A DNA stretch of 64,000 nucleotides from Candidatus Pacearchaeota archaeon (GCA_017609175.1 JAFCEJ010000001.1:57428-121427), one strand, 5' to 3'. Positions 15,062 to 63,700 are shown, counted from the first letter of the stretch. Notes: generated by a model from the letters alone, not told the origin. Made by a program: numbers and translations.

Positions 15062-15172
15062 GGTGGATGTAGTTTAGTGGCAGAACGTACGGTTGTGGCG
15101 AGCAATTTCGCTAAAGGATGTGATTTTGCTTGCAAAATCCGTAAAGCGAGAGTTCGATTCTCTCCTTCCACC
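15062..15172 (+). tRNA. tRNA-His(GUG) with encoded G-1 and ~39-nt intron
   Basis: G-1 (15062) is opposite discriminator C73 (15172). Acceptor GTGGATG/CTTCCAC has one U-U mismatch. D arm GTTT-AGTGGCA-GAAC, anticodon stem TACGG/CCGTA, loop TTGTGG. Intron about 15099-15137. T arm GAGAG-TTCGATT-CTCTC. Confidence 0.85.
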
Positions 15173-21350: not shown

Positions 21351-21511
21351 GGGTGCATAGTTTAATGGTAAAACAGGCGGCTCCAGAGGCGAGGATACCT
21401 ATGGTTTCCAATTCGCGAAATCGCTCGGCTTAACCTTCCAGAGGTTAATTCAAAACCGATTAATCAATCCGGAGTGACCGCCAGCTGGGGGTTCGATTCC
21501 CTCTGCGCCCA
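21351..21511 (+). tRNA. tRNA-Trp(CCA) with ~90-nt intron
   Basis: Acceptor GGGTGCA/TGCGCCC, D arm GTTT-AATGGTA-AAAC, anticodon stem GGCGG/CCGCC, loop CTCCAG..A. Intron about 21387-21476. T arm GGGGG-TTCGATT-CCCTC. Confidence 0.8.
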
Positions 21512-59195: not shown

Positions 59196-59687
59196 TCAAT
59201 CGGAGTCGGCGCCTTTAAGTTTTCTCAAGACTTCTTTAACAACTTTTTTTGTTGGCTTTGAAGGGGTGGGCAAATCCCAGCCAATATCAACGAGAAGATT
59301 TATGGCGTGTTGCATATTTTTGTTTAGTAAAGGCATAGCATTTAAGAACTCTTTATGAAGAATTTTTGCTTTTTTCTTTAAAGATTTGTCTGCAGGATTT
59401 TTTAAATATCCTTCGTAAATCTTTATTAAATTCCTCTTTAATCTGTCATAATAATCTAATTCTTTTTGTCTTTCCTTTTTGAATCTTTCCATAAATTGAG
59501 GATATTTTTTTCTAATCTCTGACAATATTTTTCTTTCATGTTTATTAACTTGTTTCTTTATCATGATTCCATGAAAATGCCAATATATGCATTCTTTATC
59601 CTCATTTTCAACATAATGAACTGCGCAGTAAGTATGAGTACCTACCTTAATATCCCCTTTTCTTCCACAAATTTCACACTTTTCCAT
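59196..59687 (-). CDS. hypothetical protein with N-terminal zinc-ribbon-like motif
   Basis: 163 aa. MEKCEICGRKG...THTYCAVH. The rest is basic and helical. TATA-like tttaataaaa lies about 25-33 nt upstream. Confidence 0.55.
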   Translation of the reverse strand: MEKCEICGRKGDIKVGTHTYCAVHYVENEDKECIYWHFHGIMIKKQVNKHERKILSEIRKKYPQFMERFKKERQKELDYYDRLKRNLIKIYEGYLKNPADKSLKKKAKILHKEFLNAMPLLNKNMQHAINLLVDIGWDLPTPSKPTKKVVKEVLRKLKGADSD

Positions 59688-59738
59688 ATTAAGAATTAGA
59701 ATATTTTAGTTTTATTAAATGTTACGGCGCCGACTCCG
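59201..59738. repeat. perfect 13-bp GC-rich inverted repeat pair bracketing one promoter-plus-ORF module
   Basis: cggagtcggcgcc (59201-59213, encoding the C-terminal GADSD) and ggcgccgactccg (59726-59738, 39 nt upstream of the ATG at 59687). 10 of the 13 positions are G/C, in an AT-rich window. Confidence 0.85.
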
Positions 59739-59753
59739 ACTCTTCGGGATTTT

Positions 59754-59820
59754 TCGCCTTCGGCGAACTTCGGTTAATGCTAATGTTAGGCGTAATTAAA
59801 ACGAACTCTGGGACTGCGGA
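59754..59820 (+). repeat. GC-rich repeat unit, full copy
   Basis: tcgccttcggcgaacttcggttaatgctaatgttag plus the tail cgtaattaaaacgaactctgggactgcgg. Related to 59158-59193 and 62068-62121. Confidence 0.7.
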
Positions 59821-59832
59821 TTAGATTGAGGT

Positions 59833-60537
59833 TTATTTATTAATGAGATAAATAAAAAATTCTTGTTGATTTGAGGACTTGCCTCTTAATTCCGAATTAA
59901 TTAAACCTTTTACTTCATATCCATTTTCTGATGCCCAATCTGAAACTCTTTTAGCAATTTCAAAACATTTATTATAGTCATAAATTTTCTTTGGTTTTCC
60001 TTGGAGTTCAAAAGGAGGTTTGATCAAACCAAGAACCTCTCCATTGTTTTTTAGCCATTTTTTAACAACTAAAAGAATCTCTTCTAATGGCGAGAAAGTT
60101 ATATCAATTAAACACAAATCTATTTTTTCATCTAGTCTTTTAATTTTTCTTACATCAATATTTGGATGATAAACAACTCTTTCATCCTTTCTAAGTGTTT
60201 CAGAGAGAGGATCGCCTATATCTATTGCATACACTTTTTTAGCACCATGCTTCAACGCATAATCTGTAAAACCCCCGGTGCTACAACCAACATCAACAAC
60301 AATTTTGTCTTTAAGATTGATTTTAAAATGTTTTATAGCTGTGTCAATTTTATAACCTCCTCTTCCAACAAATTCAAAATCTTTAATCAAAGTTATTCTT
60401 GAATTTTCATCAACATTTTTGCTTGGTTTTGTCACAACAGAACCATTTACTTTAACATACCCTTCCCTAATGAGATATTTTGCTTTTTCTCTACTCTCTA
60501 CAAATTTCCTATTTGTAAGGACAATATCTAATCTCAT
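59833..60537 (-). CDS. tlyA: TlyA-like S4-domain rRNA 2'-O-methyltransferase
   Basis: MRLDIVLTNRKFVESREKAKYLIREGYVKVNG (S4 domain), FVGRGGYKID, VDVGCSTGGFTDYALKHGAKKVYAIDIG, GLIKPPFE. ATGA overlap with the radical SAM gene. Confidence 0.8.
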   Translation of the reverse strand: MRLDIVLTNRKFVESREKAKYLIREGYVKVNGSVVTKPSKNVDENSRITLIKDFEFVGRGGYKIDTAIKHFKINLKDKIVVDVGCSTGGFTDYALKHGAKKVYAIDIGDPLSETLRKDERVVYHPNIDVRKIKRLDEKIDLCLIDITFSPLEEILLVVKKWLKNNGEVLGLIKPPFELQGKPKKIYDYNKCFEIAKRVSDWASENGYEVKGLINSELRGKSSNQQEFFIYLINK

Positions 60538-61790
60538 TTTTTAATAAATATTTTAGTATAAGAAGGATCTTCGTAAAATAATCTTAAAAGTTGGGGGATT
60601 AATCTTTTGGTAATCTCGCAAGAATGATCTTCTTGATTCCATACTCTTCTAAGAGGGCATCCTCCCCTACAGATAAGTTTTAAATTGCACGAAGGACAGT
60701 TTTTATAATTAGAAAAATGAAAATTTCTAAAAGACTTTTTTTTAGAATCATTGAATTTGATTTCTCTAGAATCTTCTTCAAATCTCCCATAGAAAACATC
60801 TTCCGAATGACAATCACAATTATTAGTTATTTCGACACATCCACTAATATCCCCACTTGGCGTTAAAATAAGATTTCCTGTTGATAGACTACAATAGTTT
60901 CCTAATGTAGGTCGTGAGAAGAAAGCACTATCTACTTGGATATCTAAATTTTTCTCTCTAATATATTTAATCATATCTAAAAAATTCGAAACAAAATCTG
61001 AAGGGGAAACATTTAATTTTTGATTTCCTCTTGAATTATCAGTTATATAAACCGGTTCCATTTTTATTGTCCGGACACCAAGATCGTAAAATTCAGAAGC
61101 CATTTCCTTCATTTGAGAAACATTTAAAGACGTAATTGTGGACTGAACAACTGTTTCTATTCCATTGTTTGTAAGTTCTTGTATGTTCCCTCTTATTATT
61201 TCTGAAGAATCTCTCCCGTCCCTATAAGGTCTCTGTATTTTTTGTGAAATGCCATCATATGAGACTCTCATATGCAGATTCTCCTTTAATATCCAAGATA
61301 AATGATCCCAATTGAAAGTTCCATTAGTAATGCAATGTAAAGAAGCAACATCAGTTAATCTTTTAGCAGTTCTTGTTGCTTCTTTTATACATTCAAAATT
61401 AAGAAATGGTTCTCCCCCTCCTGCAAATCTTAAATGTATACCAGAGTGTTTCTTTGGGTCATATAATTTTTCTAAAAATTTACTAGCCATTGAGGGAGGC
61501 ATCATGTCTCTTTGTTCTCCCCCACGAGAATAACAATAGATGCATCCTAGGTTGCAGTCAAGTGTTGGGACAAAGGTTACTGAAAGGATATTTCTTTCTT
61601 TTTGAGGGTGTGTACTTAATGCAATTAAATACTCTTTAAAATTATCTAATTCTTCCTCATGCACATATAAAATCTCATTTGGGCGTATTACTGCATACAC
61701 ATCTTTGTTTACCCTAATAAAATCGGATTTATTGCTTACAGCATCCTGGGTGAGCTGCTCCAGTGAGAGTGTTACTTTGTTTTCCATCAT
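60534..61790 (-). CDS. radical SAM enzyme with SPASM-like C-terminal Cys clusters (peptide-maturase-like)
   Basis: PTLDCNLGCIYC (CxxxCxxC) at about residues 76-87. C-terminal region C..GC..ITNNCDC and CPSCNLKLICRGGCP. ~78-aa N-terminal extension. The ATG at 61790 is preferred over the TTG at 61793. Confidence 0.85.
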   Translation of the reverse strand: MMENKVTLSLEQLTQDAVSNKSDFIRVNKDVYAVIRPNEILYVHEEELDNFKEYLIALSTHPQKERNILSVTFVPTLDCNLGCIYCYSRGGEQRDMMPPSMASKFLEKLYDPKKHSGIHLRFAGGGEPFLNFECIKEATRTAKRLTDVASLHCITNGTFNWDHLSWILKENLHMRVSYDGISQKIQRPYRDGRDSSEIIRGNIQELTNNGIETVVQSTITSLNVSQMKEMASEFYDLGVRTIKMEPVYITDNSRGNQKLNVSPSDFVSNFLDMIKYIREKNLDIQVDSAFFSRPTLGNYCSLSTGNLILTPSGDISGCVEITNNCDCHSEDVFYGRFEEDSREIKFNDSKKKSFRNFHFSNYKNCPSCNLKLICRGGCPLRRVWNQEDHSCEITKRLIPQLLRLFYEDPSYTKIFIKK

Positions 61791-61947
61791 CAAAAATCCC
61801 CTCTTCTGGCCACCCTATCTTCATCAAAAGTCCGCTTTTATTCTCGGTATCTTCTACGCTCTTTGCTTCTATCTTTACATCGTGATTAGATATTTCATAA
61901 GCGCCTTTTCTAATGTTGGAGTTATAAACTGCTTTTGCTTCGTACAT
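61729..61947 (-). CDS. candidate precursor peptide (72 aa, C-terminus ...TLTGAAHPGCCKQ)
   Basis: Strong SD (gaagggggaaaaATG). First gene of the operon. Its last ~20 codons overlap the radical SAM start in another frame. Confidence 0.5.
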   Translation of the reverse strand: MYEAKAVYNSNIRKGAYEISNHDVKIEAKSVEDTENKSGLLMKIGWPEEGIFDDGKQSNTLTGAAHPGCCKQ

Positions 61948-62045
61948 TTTTCCCCCTTCGAGTTTTTATTATAAGAAGTAAAGAGTACAGATTTAAATAA
62001 TTTTCTATTATCAGGTACATTTTGGGGGCAGGTGGTCGGGGGTTT

Positions 62046-62060
62046 CAGAGTTCGTTTTAA
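62046..62060. repeat. right arm of a perfect 15-bp inverted repeat (cagagttcgttttaa); left arm is ttaaaacgaactctg at 59796-59810
   Basis: The arms bracket tlyA, the radical SAM gene, the peptide gene and their promoter. Both arms lie inside copies of the GC-rich repeat family. Confidence 0.75.
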
Positions 62061-62203: not shown

Positions 62204-62343
62204 GCCGGCATCGCATAGTGGTTATTGCACCGGTTTGCTAACAAAGGGTATTAAAATTCCCTTTAGAATCCCTTTTCAAAAAGAAAAGAAAGGCAAACAA
62301 CCGGGCCCTTCGGGGCACCCAGGTTCGATTCCTGGTGCCGGCG
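62204..62343 (+). tRNA. tRNA-Ser(GCU) with ~58-nt intron
   Basis: Acceptor GCCGGCA/TGCCGGC, anticodon stem CCGGT/ACCGG, loop TTGCTA..A. Intron about 62241-62298. Long variable arm GCCC-TTCG-GGGC. T arm CCAGG-TTCGATT-CCTGG. Confidence 0.85.
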
Positions 62344-63562: not shown

Positions 63563-63700
63563 ATGGGTAGAAAAACGGTTGCTTTAAGTTTGGATGAAGA
63601 AGTTTACGAGAAATATAAAAAATACTGTGAAGAACGCCATATAATTCTCTCACGAAAAGTTGAAGATTTCATGAAAAAGGAGTTAGAGAAAAATGACTGA
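63563..63700 (+). CDS. ribbon-helix-helix (CopG-like) small DNA-binding protein
   Basis: 45 aa, MGRKTVALSLDEEVYEKYKKYCEERHIILSRKVEDFMKKELEKND: a beta-strand followed by two helices, the RHH pattern. Overlaps the next ORF by 8 nt. Confidence 0.55.
   Translation: MGRKTVALSLDEEVYEKYKKYCEERHIILSRKVEDFMKKELEKND

What the first reader, a model, noticed from the sequence alone, without database searches (positions are those of the whole stretch)
59796..62060. Candidate RiPP-type system: Cys-terminated peptide, radical SAM/SPASM enzyme and TlyA-like rRNA methyltransferase in one IR-bracketed operon
- All three genes are on the minus strand, downstream of a TATA-like box and a strong SD (gaagggggaaaaATG).
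- Gene 1 is a 72-aa ORF ending ...GKQSNTLTGAAHPGCCKQ.
- Gene 2 is a 418-aa radical SAM protein with CNLGCIYC and C-terminal SPASM-like Cys clusters (CPSCNLKLICRGGCP). Its ~78-aa N-terminal extension is where peptide-recognition elements sit in known maturases. Its start overlaps the peptide's last ~20 codons.
- Gene 3 is an S4 plus FtsJ-type TlyA-like 2'-O-methyltransferase, joined to gene 2 by an ATGA overlap.
- The operon is bracketed by a perfect 15-bp inverted repeat (59796-59810 and 62046-62060). It lies in an accessory-looking stretch next to tRNA-Ser.
- Inference: a peptide natural-product locus in which the rRNA methyltransferase might provide self-protection, as thiostrepton producers do. 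I know of no described system with this composition in DPANN-like archaea.
Basis: partly seen in the sequence, partly recalled or inferred. Interest (0 to 1): 0.7.

Follow-up and report, generated by a model that had tools for sequence, protein, structure and literature searches.

The report
Conserved Cys-Cys peptide, radical-SAM maturase, TlyA
A small gene ending in Gly-Cys-Cys and the radical-SAM enzyme that most likely cross-links its product form a previously unnamed pair, found in tiny symbiotic archaea and bacteria and usually next to a ribosomal-RNA methyltransferase gene, which hints at an unexplored link to the ribosome.

Summary
The core interpretation holds: the 72-aa ORF is a real, conserved gene.

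- **Peptide.** Relatives sit next to the radical SAM gene in 21 of 24 informative distinct loci. These come from DPANN archaea, CPR bacteria and a few others. The motif is W…G-[AS]-[AS]-[HE]-[PS]-G-C-C-x-Q, with three subtypes that track the enzyme clades.
- **Overlap.** In the 62-nt overlap the peptide frame is 91% conserved and the enzyme frame 59%.
- **Enzyme.** It is a full 7-Cys SPASM radical SAM protein. Its closest solved structure is the thioether-forming CteB. No NCBIfam or Pfam family covers the peptide or this enzyme clade.
- **TlyA.** A catalytically intact TlyA lies adjacent in 17 of 25 informative loci, in four gene orders. It is adjacent in 0 of about 130 more distant SPASM loci, so the link is real.
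- **Self-protection is not supported.** Archaeal TlyAs 49–76% identical to this one occur without the module, and a 77% one sits beside a decayed radical SAM gene. TlyA is therefore a resident gene. No exporter or protease is conserved.
- **Inverted repeat.** The 15-bp repeat is within chance and absent from relatives.

Verdict: a new RiPP-type peptide–maturase family resembling SCIFF, with an unexplained, conserved association with tlyA.

The parts
61729..61947 (-). Precursor-peptide gene (72 aa). It has a variable N-terminal region, a conserved hydrophobic strand ending in W46 (LLMKIGW), and a C-terminal core G63-A-A-H-P-G-C69-C70-K-Q72. It is a subtype A member of a peptide family with no existing name.
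   Evidence: - The ORF and a Shine-Dalgarno sequence are present.
- Homologues lie next to the radical SAM gene in other loci.
- There are 92 clusters at E <= 0.01 among 5.8 billion proteins, none carrying a functional name.
- G-C-C is invariant and W nearly invariant.
- No Pfam or NCBIfam hit was found for any of 60 members.
61732..61761 (-). Core motif codons G63-Q72 (GAAHPGCCKQ). This is the probable site of modification.
   Evidence: - Among 19 close relatives, the last 20 residues are 91% identical pairwise, against 52% for the preceding 20 residues.
- G-C-C is invariant across 60 family members.
61729..61790 (-). 62-nt dual-coding overlap. It holds the peptide's last 20 codons plus its stop codon, and the first 20 codons of the radical SAM gene. 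The enzyme's ATG-ATG start is created by the conserved Asp-Asp codons (GATGATG) of the peptide. Its Shine-Dalgarno sequence (GAGGGG) lies in the peptide's P-E-E-G codons.
   Evidence: - The sequence shows the overlap directly.
- The peptide frame is 91% conserved and the enzyme frame 59% over the same bases.
- Enzyme residues 1-18 are predicted disordered, with pLDDT below 50.
- Homologues without the overlap start at about residue 20.
60534..61790 (-). Radical SAM/SPASM peptide maturase (418 aa).
- C79-x3-C83-x2-C86 binds the radical SAM cluster.
- The 7-Cys SPASM motif is C300-x12-G313-x4-C318 ... C365-x2-C368-x5-C374-x3-C378 ... C391.
- Residues 20-55 form a small N-terminal unit of three strands and one helix.
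   Evidence: - PF04055 and TIGR04085 both score above their cut-offs.
- The motif residues are invariant in an alignment of 34 sequences.
- The AlphaFold2 model has mean pLDDT 87.7.
- The closest solved structure is CteB (5WGG/5WHY), by sequence (E 7.5e-29) and by fold (E 7.6e-19, TM 0.68).
59833..60537 (-). TlyA-family RNA 2'-O-methyltransferase (234 aa, S4 plus FtsJ). It is coupled to the radical SAM gene by an ATGA overlap. It has the catalytic residues K63, D145, K173 and E226 and the SAM-binding motif GCSTG.
   Evidence: - TIGR00478 scores 199 bits against a cut-off of 185.8; PF01728 and PF01479 also hit.
- The PDB matches are TlyA structures 3HP7 and 7S0S.
- The four catalytic residues are conserved in all 16 module TlyAs, and in 127-128 of 128 TlyAs overall. 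The GxSxG serine is conserved in 14 of 16 and 124 of 128.
- The KDK and GxSxG roles are taken from PMC12097680.
61948..62010 (-). Probable promoter and 5' leader. It contains A/T-rich TATA-like boxes (ttatttaaat, cttataataaaa) and the Shine-Dalgarno sequence GGGGG 5 nt before the peptide's ATG.
   Evidence: Read directly from the sequence. Not tested further.
59796..59810 (.). Downstream arm of the perfect 15-bp inverted repeat. Probably fortuitous.
62046..62060 (.). Upstream arm of the perfect 15-bp inverted repeat. It lies upstream of the likely promoter, so it would not be in the operon transcript. Probably fortuitous.

Best explanation
The locus encodes a ribosomally made precursor peptide and its dedicated radical SAM/SPASM maturase. 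Together they belong to a compact module that has no family name.

**Proposed mechanism**
1. The peptide's hydrophobic strand ending in Trp docks on the enzyme's small N-terminal beta-sheet (inferred).
2. The invariant Gly-Cys-Cys core reaches the active site. There a Cys thiol most likely binds the open iron site of the first auxiliary cluster. The 5'-deoxyadenosyl radical then abstracts a hydrogen from a nearby residue, giving one or two intramolecular thioether cross-links, as CteB and PapB do (inferred from homology).
3. No exporter, leader protease or immunity gene travels with the pair. The product therefore most likely acts inside the cell, like the SCIFF peptides of Clostridia, rather than as a secreted antibiotic (inferred).

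**Relation to tlyA**
- The pair is preferentially kept next to tlyA, and is translationally coupled to it here.
- tlyA is a resident, catalytically intact rRNA 2'-O-methyltransferase gene. It also exists on its own in related genomes.
- This points to co-expression or a functional connection with the ribosome. The nature of that connection is unknown.

**Shown:** the gene family, its conservation, its co-variation with the enzyme, the enzyme class, and the linkage with tlyA.

**Inferred:** the chemistry, the intracellular site of action, and any role at the ribosome.
For: **The peptide is a real gene.**
- tblastn and an HMM find it next to the enzyme in 21 of 24 informative distinct loci (27 distinct family loci in all). 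The hosts are Woese-, Pace-, Nano- and Micrarchaeota, Paceibacterota, Parcubacteria, WWE3, other Patescibacteria and a Bacilli MAG.
- Three look-ups that started from the peptide always found the radical SAM gene adjacent.
- In the dual-coding overlap the peptide frame is 91% conserved and the enzyme frame 59%.
- The three C-terminal subtypes track the radical SAM clades.

**The enzyme is a peptide maturase.**
- It has the full CX3CX2C motif and the 7-Cys SPASM motif.
- Its best family hits are peptide maturases: PapB, nif11-rSAM and the SCIFF maturase.
- Its best solved relative is CteB, by sequence and by fold.

**The link with TlyA is real.**
- TlyA is adjacent in 17 of 25 informative loci, in the orders p-R-T, R-p-T, p-T-R and R-p with T convergent.
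- It is adjacent in 0 of about 130 loci of more distant SPASM enzymes fetched in the same way.
- TlyA-linked loci occur in every radical SAM clade.
- The TlyA catalytic residues are intact.

**Nothing else is conserved nearby.** Only the radical SAM gene and TlyA recur in the neighbourhoods.
Against: - No chemistry was observed. No family cut-off for a thioether-forming maturase is reached: PapB scores 98.6 against 340, and the SCIFF maturase 69 against 425. SPASM enzymes also make C-C and C-O links and epimers.
- No PqqD-like recognition element is detectable by sequence.
- Three informative family loci lack a canonical peptide: L007, L088, and L094, which has a divergent small ORF.
- Eight informative loci lack TlyA, so TlyA is not obligatory.
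- The absence of an exporter within 5-6 kb does not exclude export by a gene elsewhere. The conserved G-[AS]-[AS] before the core resembles a double-glycine cleavage site.
- Most evidence comes from metagenome bins, which may include misassembled or misbinned contigs, such as the 'Azospirillaceae' locus L011.
Confidence: 0.7

Rival explanations
1. The module makes a secreted, ribosome-targeting peptide antibiotic. The adjacent TlyA methylates the producer's own rRNA for self-protection, as the thiostrepton producer's Tsr does.
For: - TlyA is strongly and specifically linked to the pair in two domains of life.
- TlyA's targets, H69 and h44, form a peptide-antibiotic binding site (PMC9168844, PMC12235517).
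- CPR and DPANN organisms live attached to hosts, so an inter-organism weapon is plausible.
- The G-[AS]-[AS] before the core resembles a double-glycine leader cleavage site.
Against: - Archaeal TlyAs 49-76% identical to this one occur with unrelated neighbours and no module (L182/183, L184, L185). The 77% one in L181 survives next to a decayed radical SAM gene.
- Module-bearing and module-free TlyAs interleave in one archaeal clade. This is the pattern of a resident gene, not of a cluster-specific immunity gene.
- Known TlyA methylation increases sensitivity to capreomycin (PMC12235517), and TlyA is needed for ribosome assembly in B. subtilis (PMC12097680).
- No exporter or protease is conserved.
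- Eight informative loci have the pair without TlyA.
Confidence: 0.1
2. The modified peptide is an endogenous ribosome-associated factor or a partner of TlyA. Examples would be a small cross-linked protein that binds near H69/h44, or one that modulates methylation or subunit joining. On this reading the three genes form one functional unit in ribosome biogenesis or regulation.
For: - The three genes stay adjacent through four different gene orders and across the bacteria-archaea divide.
- The radical SAM gene and tlyA are translationally coupled by ATGA.
- Subtypes B and C carry Lys-rich, RNA-friendly tails (GGCGKKHG, SPCSPKKFS).
- There are no export genes.
- In one lineage two GNAT acetyltransferases take TlyA's place.
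Against: - There is no direct evidence of ribosome binding.
- Subtype A, the window's type, has no basic tail.
- The pair persists without TlyA in 8 informative loci, and TlyA persists without the pair.
- The adjacency could reflect co-regulation only.
Confidence: 0.15
3. The peptide is the precursor of a small peptide-derived cofactor or metal-binding molecule. This would be analogous to PQQ or mycofactocin, which are also made by SPASM enzymes acting near a peptide's C-terminus.
For: - The conserved residues cluster at the extreme C-terminus (H/E, C, C, and a further Cys and His in subtype B).
- SPASM enzymes such as PqqE and MftC appear among the weaker hits.
- The module is kept like a housekeeping gene in reduced genomes.
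Against: - No peptidase, oxidoreductase or other tailoring or user enzyme is conserved nearby.
- The best relatives are thioether-forming maturases, not PqqE or MftC.
- This reading does not explain the link with tlyA.
Confidence: 0.05
4. The small ORF is a regulatory leader peptide, or a spurious ORF, and is not a substrate.
For: - In R-p-T loci the ORF lies directly upstream of tlyA, where a leader peptide would sit.
- Its conserved C-terminal P-G motif and Trp recall arrest peptides (from general knowledge, not tested here).
Against: - The ORF is always next to the radical SAM gene, but it is upstream, downstream or convergent relative to tlyA, and it is present where tlyA is absent.
- Its subtypes co-vary with the radical SAM clades.
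- The invariant Cys-Cys fits a SPASM substrate.
- Its frame is far better conserved than the overlapping enzyme frame.
Confidence: 0.02

Closest known systems
SCIFF peptide (ScfA) with its maturase ScfB/CteB (TIGR03973/TIGR03974; PDB 5WGG, 5WHY)
   Same: - A short Cys-containing peptide is paired with a radical SAM enzyme that has a 7-Cys SPASM domain and an N-terminal peptide-binding region.
- The two-gene core has no conserved exporter or protease and is retained like a housekeeping gene within a lineage.
- CteB is the closest solved structure by sequence and by fold.
   Different: - The peptide is unrelated. It has a G-C-C core with two or three Cys rather than six, and no SCIFF model hit.
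- The enzyme scores 69 bits against a cut-off of 425.
- The N-terminal domain is much smaller.
- The hosts are CPR bacteria and DPANN archaea rather than Clostridia.
- The linkage to tlyA is not reported for SCIFF in the literature searched.
PapB/PapA (freyrasin) ranthipeptide system (NF047865)
   Same: It is the best-scoring NCBIfam model for all 34 family members (best E 1e-42). Like this enzyme it is a radical SAM/SPASM protein, and it links Cys sulfur to a nearby residue (PMC12373016).
   Different: - The score is 98.6 bits against a cut-off of 340.
- PapA has six CX3D/E repeats. This peptide has a single adjacent Cys-Cys and no conserved acidic acceptor after it.
Anaerobic sulfatase-maturating enzyme (anSME; TIGR03942; PDB 4K36-4K39)
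   Same: It has a SPASM fold and acts on a Cys in a short peptide motif. It is the second-best structural match.
   Different: - The score is 66.8 bits against a cut-off of 349.
- No sulfatase or C-x-P-x-R motif is present.
- The partner here is a dedicated small peptide.
- The family has 7 conserved SPASM Cys, not the 8 that fully ligate both anSME clusters. The count of 7 comes; the anSME comparison is from general knowledge.
TlyA rRNA (cytidine-2'-O)-methyltransferase (TIGR00478; M. tuberculosis Rv1694, B. subtilis YqxC)
   Same: - It has the S4 plus FtsJ architecture, the K-D-K-E catalytic residues and the GxSxG SAM motif, and it scores above the family cut-off.
- At 234 aa its size fits the shorter type I enzymes described in PMC9168844.
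   Different: - The host is archaeal.
- It falls below the cut-off of the bacterial equivalog model NF049952 (166.5 against 250).
- It is usually fused into an operon with a peptide-radical SAM pair. That context is not described in the TlyA papers found.
Antibiotic gene clusters with an rRNA-methyltransferase self-resistance gene (e.g. thiostrepton with Tsr)
   Same: A ribosomally made, modified peptide is encoded next to an rRNA 2'-O-methyltransferase gene.
   Different: - The methyltransferase is not specific to the cluster.
- There are no export or tailoring genes.
- TlyA belongs to a different methyltransferase family from Tsr (from general knowledge).

Membership tests
Radical SAM superfamily (PF04055) | CX3CX2C motif that binds the SAM-cleaving [4Fe-4S] cluster, and a score above the Pfam gathering cut-off | tested here: met
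   - C79-x3-C83-x2-C86 is invariant in 34 sequences.
- PF04055 scores 51.5 bits against a cut-off of 29.5.
SPASM subfamily (TIGR04085) | C-terminal 7-Cys motif CX9-15GX4C - gap - CX2CX5CX3C - gap - C, for two auxiliary clusters | tested here: met
   - C300-x12-G313-x4-C318, C365-x2-C368-x5-C374-x3-C378 and C391 are all invariant, except G313, which is at least 90% conserved.
- TIGR04085 scores 35.2 bits against a cut-off of 27.
RiPP precursor-maturase pair | A small ORF conserved next to the enzyme in diverse genomes and co-varying with it | tested here: met
   - The peptide is adjacent in 21 of 24 informative distinct loci.
- Look-ups that started from the peptide always found the enzyme.
- Peptide subtypes track enzyme clades.
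- The peptide frame is 91% conserved in the overlap, against 59% for the enzyme frame.
RiPP precursor-maturase pair | A RiPP recognition element (PqqD-like winged helix) in the enzyme or in a partner protein | tested here: inconclusive
   - No PF05402 (PqqD) hit was found at E <= 0.01.
- The AlphaFold2 model shows only three strands and one helix in residues 20-55.
- A peptide-enzyme complex could not be modelled with the tools available.
RiPP precursor-maturase pair | Demonstrated post-translational modification of the peptide | not testable with these tools
   This needs co-expression or in vitro reconstitution followed by mass spectrometry.
SCIFF maturase ScfB (TIGR03974) | Score above the equivalog cut-off, and a partner SCIFF peptide | tested here: not met
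   - The score is 69 bits against a cut-off of 425.
- The peptide has no NCBIfam hit.
PapB ranthipeptide maturase (NF047865) | Score above the equivalog cut-off, and a substrate with CX3D/E repeats | tested here: not met
   - The score is 98.6 bits against a cut-off of 340.
- The peptide has no CX3D/E repeats.
Anaerobic sulfatase maturase (TIGR03942) | Score above the equivalog cut-off, and a sulfatase substrate | tested here: not met
   - The score is 66.8 bits against a cut-off of 349.
- No sulfatase gene recurs in the neighbourhoods.
TlyA family rRNA 2'-O-methyltransferase (TIGR00478) | S4 plus FtsJ architecture and a score above the family cut-off | tested here: met
   - The score is 199 bits against a cut-off of 185.8.
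- PF01479 and PF01728 both exceed their cut-offs.
TlyA family rRNA 2'-O-methyltransferase (TIGR00478) | Catalytic K-D-K(-E) residues and the GxSxG SAM-binding motif | tested here: met
   - K63, D145, K173, E226 and G84-x-S86-x-G88 are present.
- The four catalytic residues and both glycines are conserved in all 16 module TlyAs. The serine is conserved in 14 of 16.
- The roles of these residues are taken from PMC12097680.
TlyA family rRNA 2'-O-methyltransferase (TIGR00478) | Methylation of C1920 (23S) and/or C1409 (16S) | not testable with these tools
   This needs an in vitro methylation assay or rRNA modification mapping. The bacterial equivalog model NF049952 is not reached (166.5 against 250).
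Antibiotic cluster with a dedicated rRNA-methyltransferase immunity gene | The methyltransferase is specific to the cluster: an extra copy that is absent from close relatives lacking the cluster | tested here: not met
   - TlyAs at 49-76% identity occur without the module (L182/183, L184, L185). One at 77% identity sits beside a decayed radical SAM gene (L181).
- They interleave with module-bearing TlyAs in the neighbour-joining tree.
- Copy number per genome was not testable.
Antibiotic cluster with a dedicated rRNA-methyltransferase immunity gene | A conserved exporter and/or leader peptidase | tested here: not met
   Clustering all neighbouring ORFs of 23 representative loci gave only the radical SAM gene and TlyA as recurrent families.

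The most novel reading that the evidence does not exclude
The cross-linked peptide is a ligand of the ribosomal subunit interface, and its binding pocket (H69/h44) is shaped by the 2'-O-methylations that the adjacent TlyA installs. TlyA methylation pre-orders the capreomycin pocket in the same way. On this reading, ultra-small CPR bacteria and DPANN archaea would share a peptide-based switch of their own translation, or of their host's, that was exchanged between the two domains. It would be a natural endogenous counterpart of the tuberactinomycins.
Probability: 0.1. Interest if true: 0.85.

Novelty: new variant of a known kind. Interest (0 to 1): 0.6.

Why it matters
**What is new**
- Radical SAM/SPASM-modified peptides are a well-known kind of system. 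This peptide family and this enzyme clade have no Pfam or NCBIfam model and no name in any source, and the papers searched do not mention them.
- The family is small: about 90 clusters at 90% identity, and about 30 representatives at 50% identity. It is concentrated in organisms with the smallest known cellular genomes, in both bacteria and archaea. Keeping a three-cluster iron-sulfur enzyme for one 30-70-aa peptide in such genomes implies an important function.

**What makes it unusual**
- Its repeated attachment to the rRNA methyltransferase gene tlyA is not a feature of known RiPP systems.
- That attachment survives gene-order shuffling, and the module is present in both bacteria and archaea.
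- It gives a concrete hypothesis linking a modified peptide to the ribosome.

**How it could be tested**
- The module is only about 2.2 kb, so it can be synthesised and tested directly in E. coli.

Tried and rejected
- **Inverted-repeat bracket as a mobile-element or regulatory feature: rejected.** Perfect 15-nt inverted repeats are as frequent as chance predicts in this window. There are no other copies. The relatives L003 and L004 have no equivalent. The upstream arm lies outside the likely transcript.
- **Structured RNA in the GC-richer intergenic stretches.** Rfam at a permissive threshold found only the tRNA and a sub-threshold hairpin inside the radical SAM gene. The stretch 59688-59835 folds no better than shuffled sequence (z = +1.1).
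- **Known anti-phage defence system.** PADLOC gave only generic similarity to viperin-type radical SAM proteins and to a methyltransferase.
- **Viral carriage of the module.** One out-of-frame chance match was found in a GC-rich viral contig.
- **Later start for the radical SAM gene, which would avoid the overlap.** No ATG, GTG or TTG occurs before V32, and starting there would remove a conserved, confidently modelled strand.
- **Internal start for the peptide at M42 (MKIGW...).** This is possible, because bacterial members start there. However, the closest relatives conserve the long form and its MY(E/K)xKAVY start, and a strong Shine-Dalgarno sequence precedes the long form.
- **Literature searches that found nothing specific.** These covered TlyA with radical SAM and SPASM, RiPPs in CPR and DPANN organisms, the motif strings themselves, and SCIFF or ranthipeptides with TlyA. 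One archaeal genome-mining paper counts radical SAM RiPP clusters in DPANN in bulk (PMC12144867) but does not describe this family.
- **Not possible with the tools.** A peptide-enzyme complex could not be modelled, and tlyA copy number per genome could not be counted.

Full report
**1. What is in the window**

Three genes lie head to tail on the minus strand.
- A 72-aa ORF lies at 61729-61947. It ends ...DDGKQSNTLTGAAHPGCCKQ and is preceded by gaagggggaaaaATG.
- A 418-aa radical SAM gene lies at 60534-61790. Its ATG-ATG start sits 62 nt inside the small ORF.
- A 234-aa S4 plus FtsJ gene lies at 59833-60537. It is joined to the radical SAM gene by an ATGA overlap.

Family scans confirm the two enzymes.
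- Pfam gives Radical_SAM at 51.5 bits (cut-off 29.5), and both FtsJ and S4 above their cut-offs.
- NCBIfam gives the SPASM domain TIGR04085 at 35.2 bits (cut-off 27) and the TlyA family TIGR00478 at 199 bits (cut-off 185.8).

The window is part of a 143-kb JGI metagenome contig. Several features fit a DPANN archaeon:
- intron-bearing tRNAs;
- an archaeal-type D-aminoacyl-tRNA deacylase;
- nearest named TlyA relatives from Pacearchaeota and Woesearchaeota.

The neighbouring tRNA at 62204-62343 is tRNA-Ser(GCU) with an intron of about 60 nt.

**2. The inverted repeat is real but not meaningful**

- The perfect 15-bp repeat at 59796-59810 / 62046-62060 exists and has no further copies in the window.
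- The window holds four perfect inverted repeats of at least 15 nt at 50-4000 nt spacing. Forty Markov simulations averaged 2.7, with a range of 0-9.
- The operon's relatives L003 and L004 have no such bracket.
- The upstream arm lies beyond the likely promoter.
- GC content across the operon matches its flanks.

I treat the repeat as fortuitous.

**3. The small ORF is a real, conserved gene**

I aligned 34 homologues of the radical SAM protein at 30-85% identity. I used the alignment to fetch 160 loci from genome and metagenome collections.

- tblastn with the 72-aa product found a related small ORF beside the enzyme in archaeal and bacterial loci.
- A profile search of 5.8 billion proteins returned 92 clusters at E <= 0.01. 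Where a source gives a description at all, it is 'hypothetical protein'.
- An exhaustive search of 1.84 billion representatives returned about 30 small proteins.
- None of 60 members hits any Pfam or NCBIfam model.

The family has a hydrophobic strand ending in a nearly invariant Trp, followed by G-[AS]-[AS]-[HE]-[PS]-G-C-C-x-[QK] with G-C-C invariant. It has three subtypes:
- A ends at ...GCCKQ. This is the window's type and occurs in DPANN archaea.
- B continues ...xGGC[GP]KKHG.
- C reads ...AESGCCRQxGSPCSxKK[FY]S.

**4. The overlap shows which frame is under selection**

- Among 19 close relatives, the peptide's last 20 residues are 91% identical pairwise.
- The enzyme's first 20 residues, encoded by the same bases, are 59% identical.
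- Those enzyme residues are predicted disordered and are missing from homologues that do not overlap.
- The enzyme's start codon is a by-product of the peptide's conserved Asp-Asp codons (GATGATG).

**5. The peptide and the enzyme go together**

An HMM of the enzyme family separates 47 loci, scoring at least 290 bits, from about 130 loci of more distant SPASM enzymes scoring at most 262 bits. Clustering at 95% identity leaves 27 distinct family loci.

- 21 of these carry the peptide.
- Three of the six without it are cut by contig ends.
- L094 has a divergent small ORF, and L007 and L088 have none.
- Look-ups that started from three different peptides always found the enzyme adjacent.
- In a neighbour-joining tree the enzyme clades coincide with peptide subtypes A, B and C.

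**6. What the enzyme is**

- The alignment shows an invariant CX3CX2C motif and the canonical 7-Cys SPASM motif.
- Every family member hits peptide-maturase models best: PapB, nif11-rSAM, the CXXX-repeat family, HxsB and the SCIFF maturase. None comes near a cut-off, so no curated family covers this clade.
- The closest solved structure is CteB, the thioether-forming SCIFF maturase. This holds by sequence (E 7.5e-29) and by fold (E 7.6e-19, TM 0.68) against an AlphaFold2 model of mean pLDDT 87.7.
- anSME, TigE, SuiB and ChlB follow.
- The N-terminal 78 residues contain only a three-strand, one-helix unit at residues 20-55. No PqqD-like hit was found. A recognition element is therefore plausible but unproven.

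From these relatives and the invariant Cys-Cys, I infer that the enzyme forms thioether cross-links. This is inference, not observation.

**7. The tlyA link is real, but it is not self-protection**

The case that the link is real:
- A TlyA homologue lies within about 0.4 kb of the pair in 17 of 25 informative distinct loci. The orders are p-R-T (6), R-p-T (7), p-T-R (1), R-p with T convergent (2), and R-T at a contig end (1).
- It lies within 6 kb in none of the roughly 130 control loci.
- TlyA-linked loci occur in every enzyme clade.
- The module TlyAs keep the K-D-K-E residues and the GxSxG motif. In B. subtilis, K69, D155 and K183 were shown to be required for TlyA activity in vivo, and the GxSxG motif for SAM binding (PMC12097680).

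The case against self-protection came from starting at archaeal TlyAs on long contigs:
- L182/183 (76% identity), L185 (58%) and L184 (49%) have unrelated neighbours and no trace of the pair.
- L181 (77%) has only the C-terminal half of the radical SAM gene upstream of an intact tlyA.
- In a neighbour-joining tree the archaeal TlyAs form one clade in which module-bearing and module-free genes interleave.
- TlyA is therefore a resident gene that outlives the pair.
- Published work shows that TlyA methylation sensitises ribosomes to capreomycin (PMC12235517) and supports ribosome assembly (PMC12097680).

The pair also exists without TlyA. It occurs in transposase-rich contexts, and in one lineage it is followed by two GNAT genes. 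Only the radical SAM gene and TlyA recur among the neighbours. No exporter or protease does.

**8. Interpretation**

The best-supported reading is a compact peptide-maturase pair that resembles SCIFF.
- It probably forms thioether cross-links and probably acts inside the cell.
- It is kept beside tlyA, and co-translated with it here, for a reason not yet known.

The rivals are:
- a secreted ribosome-targeting antibiotic with TlyA as immunity (about 0.1);
- a ribosome- or TlyA-associated modified mini-protein (about 0.15);
- a peptide-derived cofactor (about 0.05);
- a leader peptide or spurious ORF (about 0.02).

**9. Novelty**

Literature searches found nothing on this family or on a link between TlyA and a SPASM enzyme. 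One genome-mining paper counts radical SAM RiPP clusters in DPANN archaea in bulk (PMC12144867).

I class the finding as a new variant of a known kind. The logic is familiar RiPP logic. The peptide family is new, the host range is unusual, and the conserved association with an rRNA methyltransferase is unexplained.

**10. Limits**

- All comparative data come from metagenome assemblies.
- The trees are neighbour-joining only.
- tlyA copy number per genome, a peptide-enzyme complex model and any chemistry were out of reach.

Noticed in passing
window 62204-62343 (+); also 15063-15172 and 21351-21511: These are intron-containing tRNAs that Rfam found and ARAGORN missed. The one next to the operon is tRNA-Ser(GCU), with an intron of about 60 nt and a long variable arm. 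They fit an archaeal origin for the window.
   Followed up: partly
L181 3426-4004 (Pacearchaeota JAWBNX010000002.1): A 192-aa ORF equals the C-terminal half of the radical SAM enzyme (80% identical to residues 222-419). It lies directly upstream of an intact tlyA that is 77% identical to the window's. The module is decaying while tlyA survives.
   Followed up: yes
L003 5971-7250 (Woesearchaeota JAWADY010000002.1): The radical SAM gene of the closest genome-collection relative is split into two overlapping ORFs (151 aa and 245 aa). This is either a frameshift or an assembly error. The peptide and tlyA in that locus are intact.
   Followed up: no
window 59200-59222 / 59717-59739, around the ORF at 59196-59687 (-): A second inverted repeat (23 nt, 83% complementary) brackets the next gene. 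That gene is a 163-aa ORF with a Cys-rich N-terminus (CEICG...C..H). Within the loci fetched here it was found only in copies of this same contig region (L001, L002), and it has no family hit. One arm lies inside the end of the gene's coding sequence.
   Followed up: no
L094 7185-7313: A family locus has no canonical peptide. Right after the radical SAM gene it has a small ORF, MKKVTVTFHDDKRRGRQKGECKH. The leader is similar, with Phe in place of Trp, but the core has a single Cys. It may be a diverged substrate.
   Followed up: no
L176-L180 (groundwater contigs), about 60 nt after the peptide gene: In this lineage two tandem GNAT acetyltransferase genes follow the peptide where tlyA usually sits. 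The peptide there has Phe in place of the conserved Trp.
   Followed up: no
L163-L170: The radical SAM gene and peptide, without tlyA, sit among several transposase genes (DDE_Tnp_1, DDE_3). The identical 44-aa peptide is recorded on about 80 contigs. This suggests a recently mobile or very abundant copy.
   Followed up: partly
window 63563-63700 (+) and beyond the window end (L001 1922-8228): About 1.6 kb from the operon's upstream end (the peptide start at 61947) lies a 45-aa DUF6364 ORF. A 1054-aa PLD/SNF2 helicase gene and a 1002-aa MmeI-like restriction-modification gene follow and run off the window. This is the only clearly accessory DNA nearby.
   Followed up: no
window 61339-61350 / 61374-61385 (inside the radical SAM gene): A perfect 12-bp hairpin gives a sub-threshold Rfam hit (Plastid-psbA-4, 32 bits against a cut-off of 56.8) on both strands. 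It is probably a chance palindrome in coding sequence.
   Followed up: no
P0144 and P0146 (protein database entries): These are chimeric gene calls. P0144 joins the peptide's C-terminal part (from VVSKSHPGCC...) to the first residues of TlyA. P0146 joins the N-terminus of the radical SAM protein to the peptide's core. Both are likely frameshifted assemblies, and they independently show the same adjacency.
   Followed up: no
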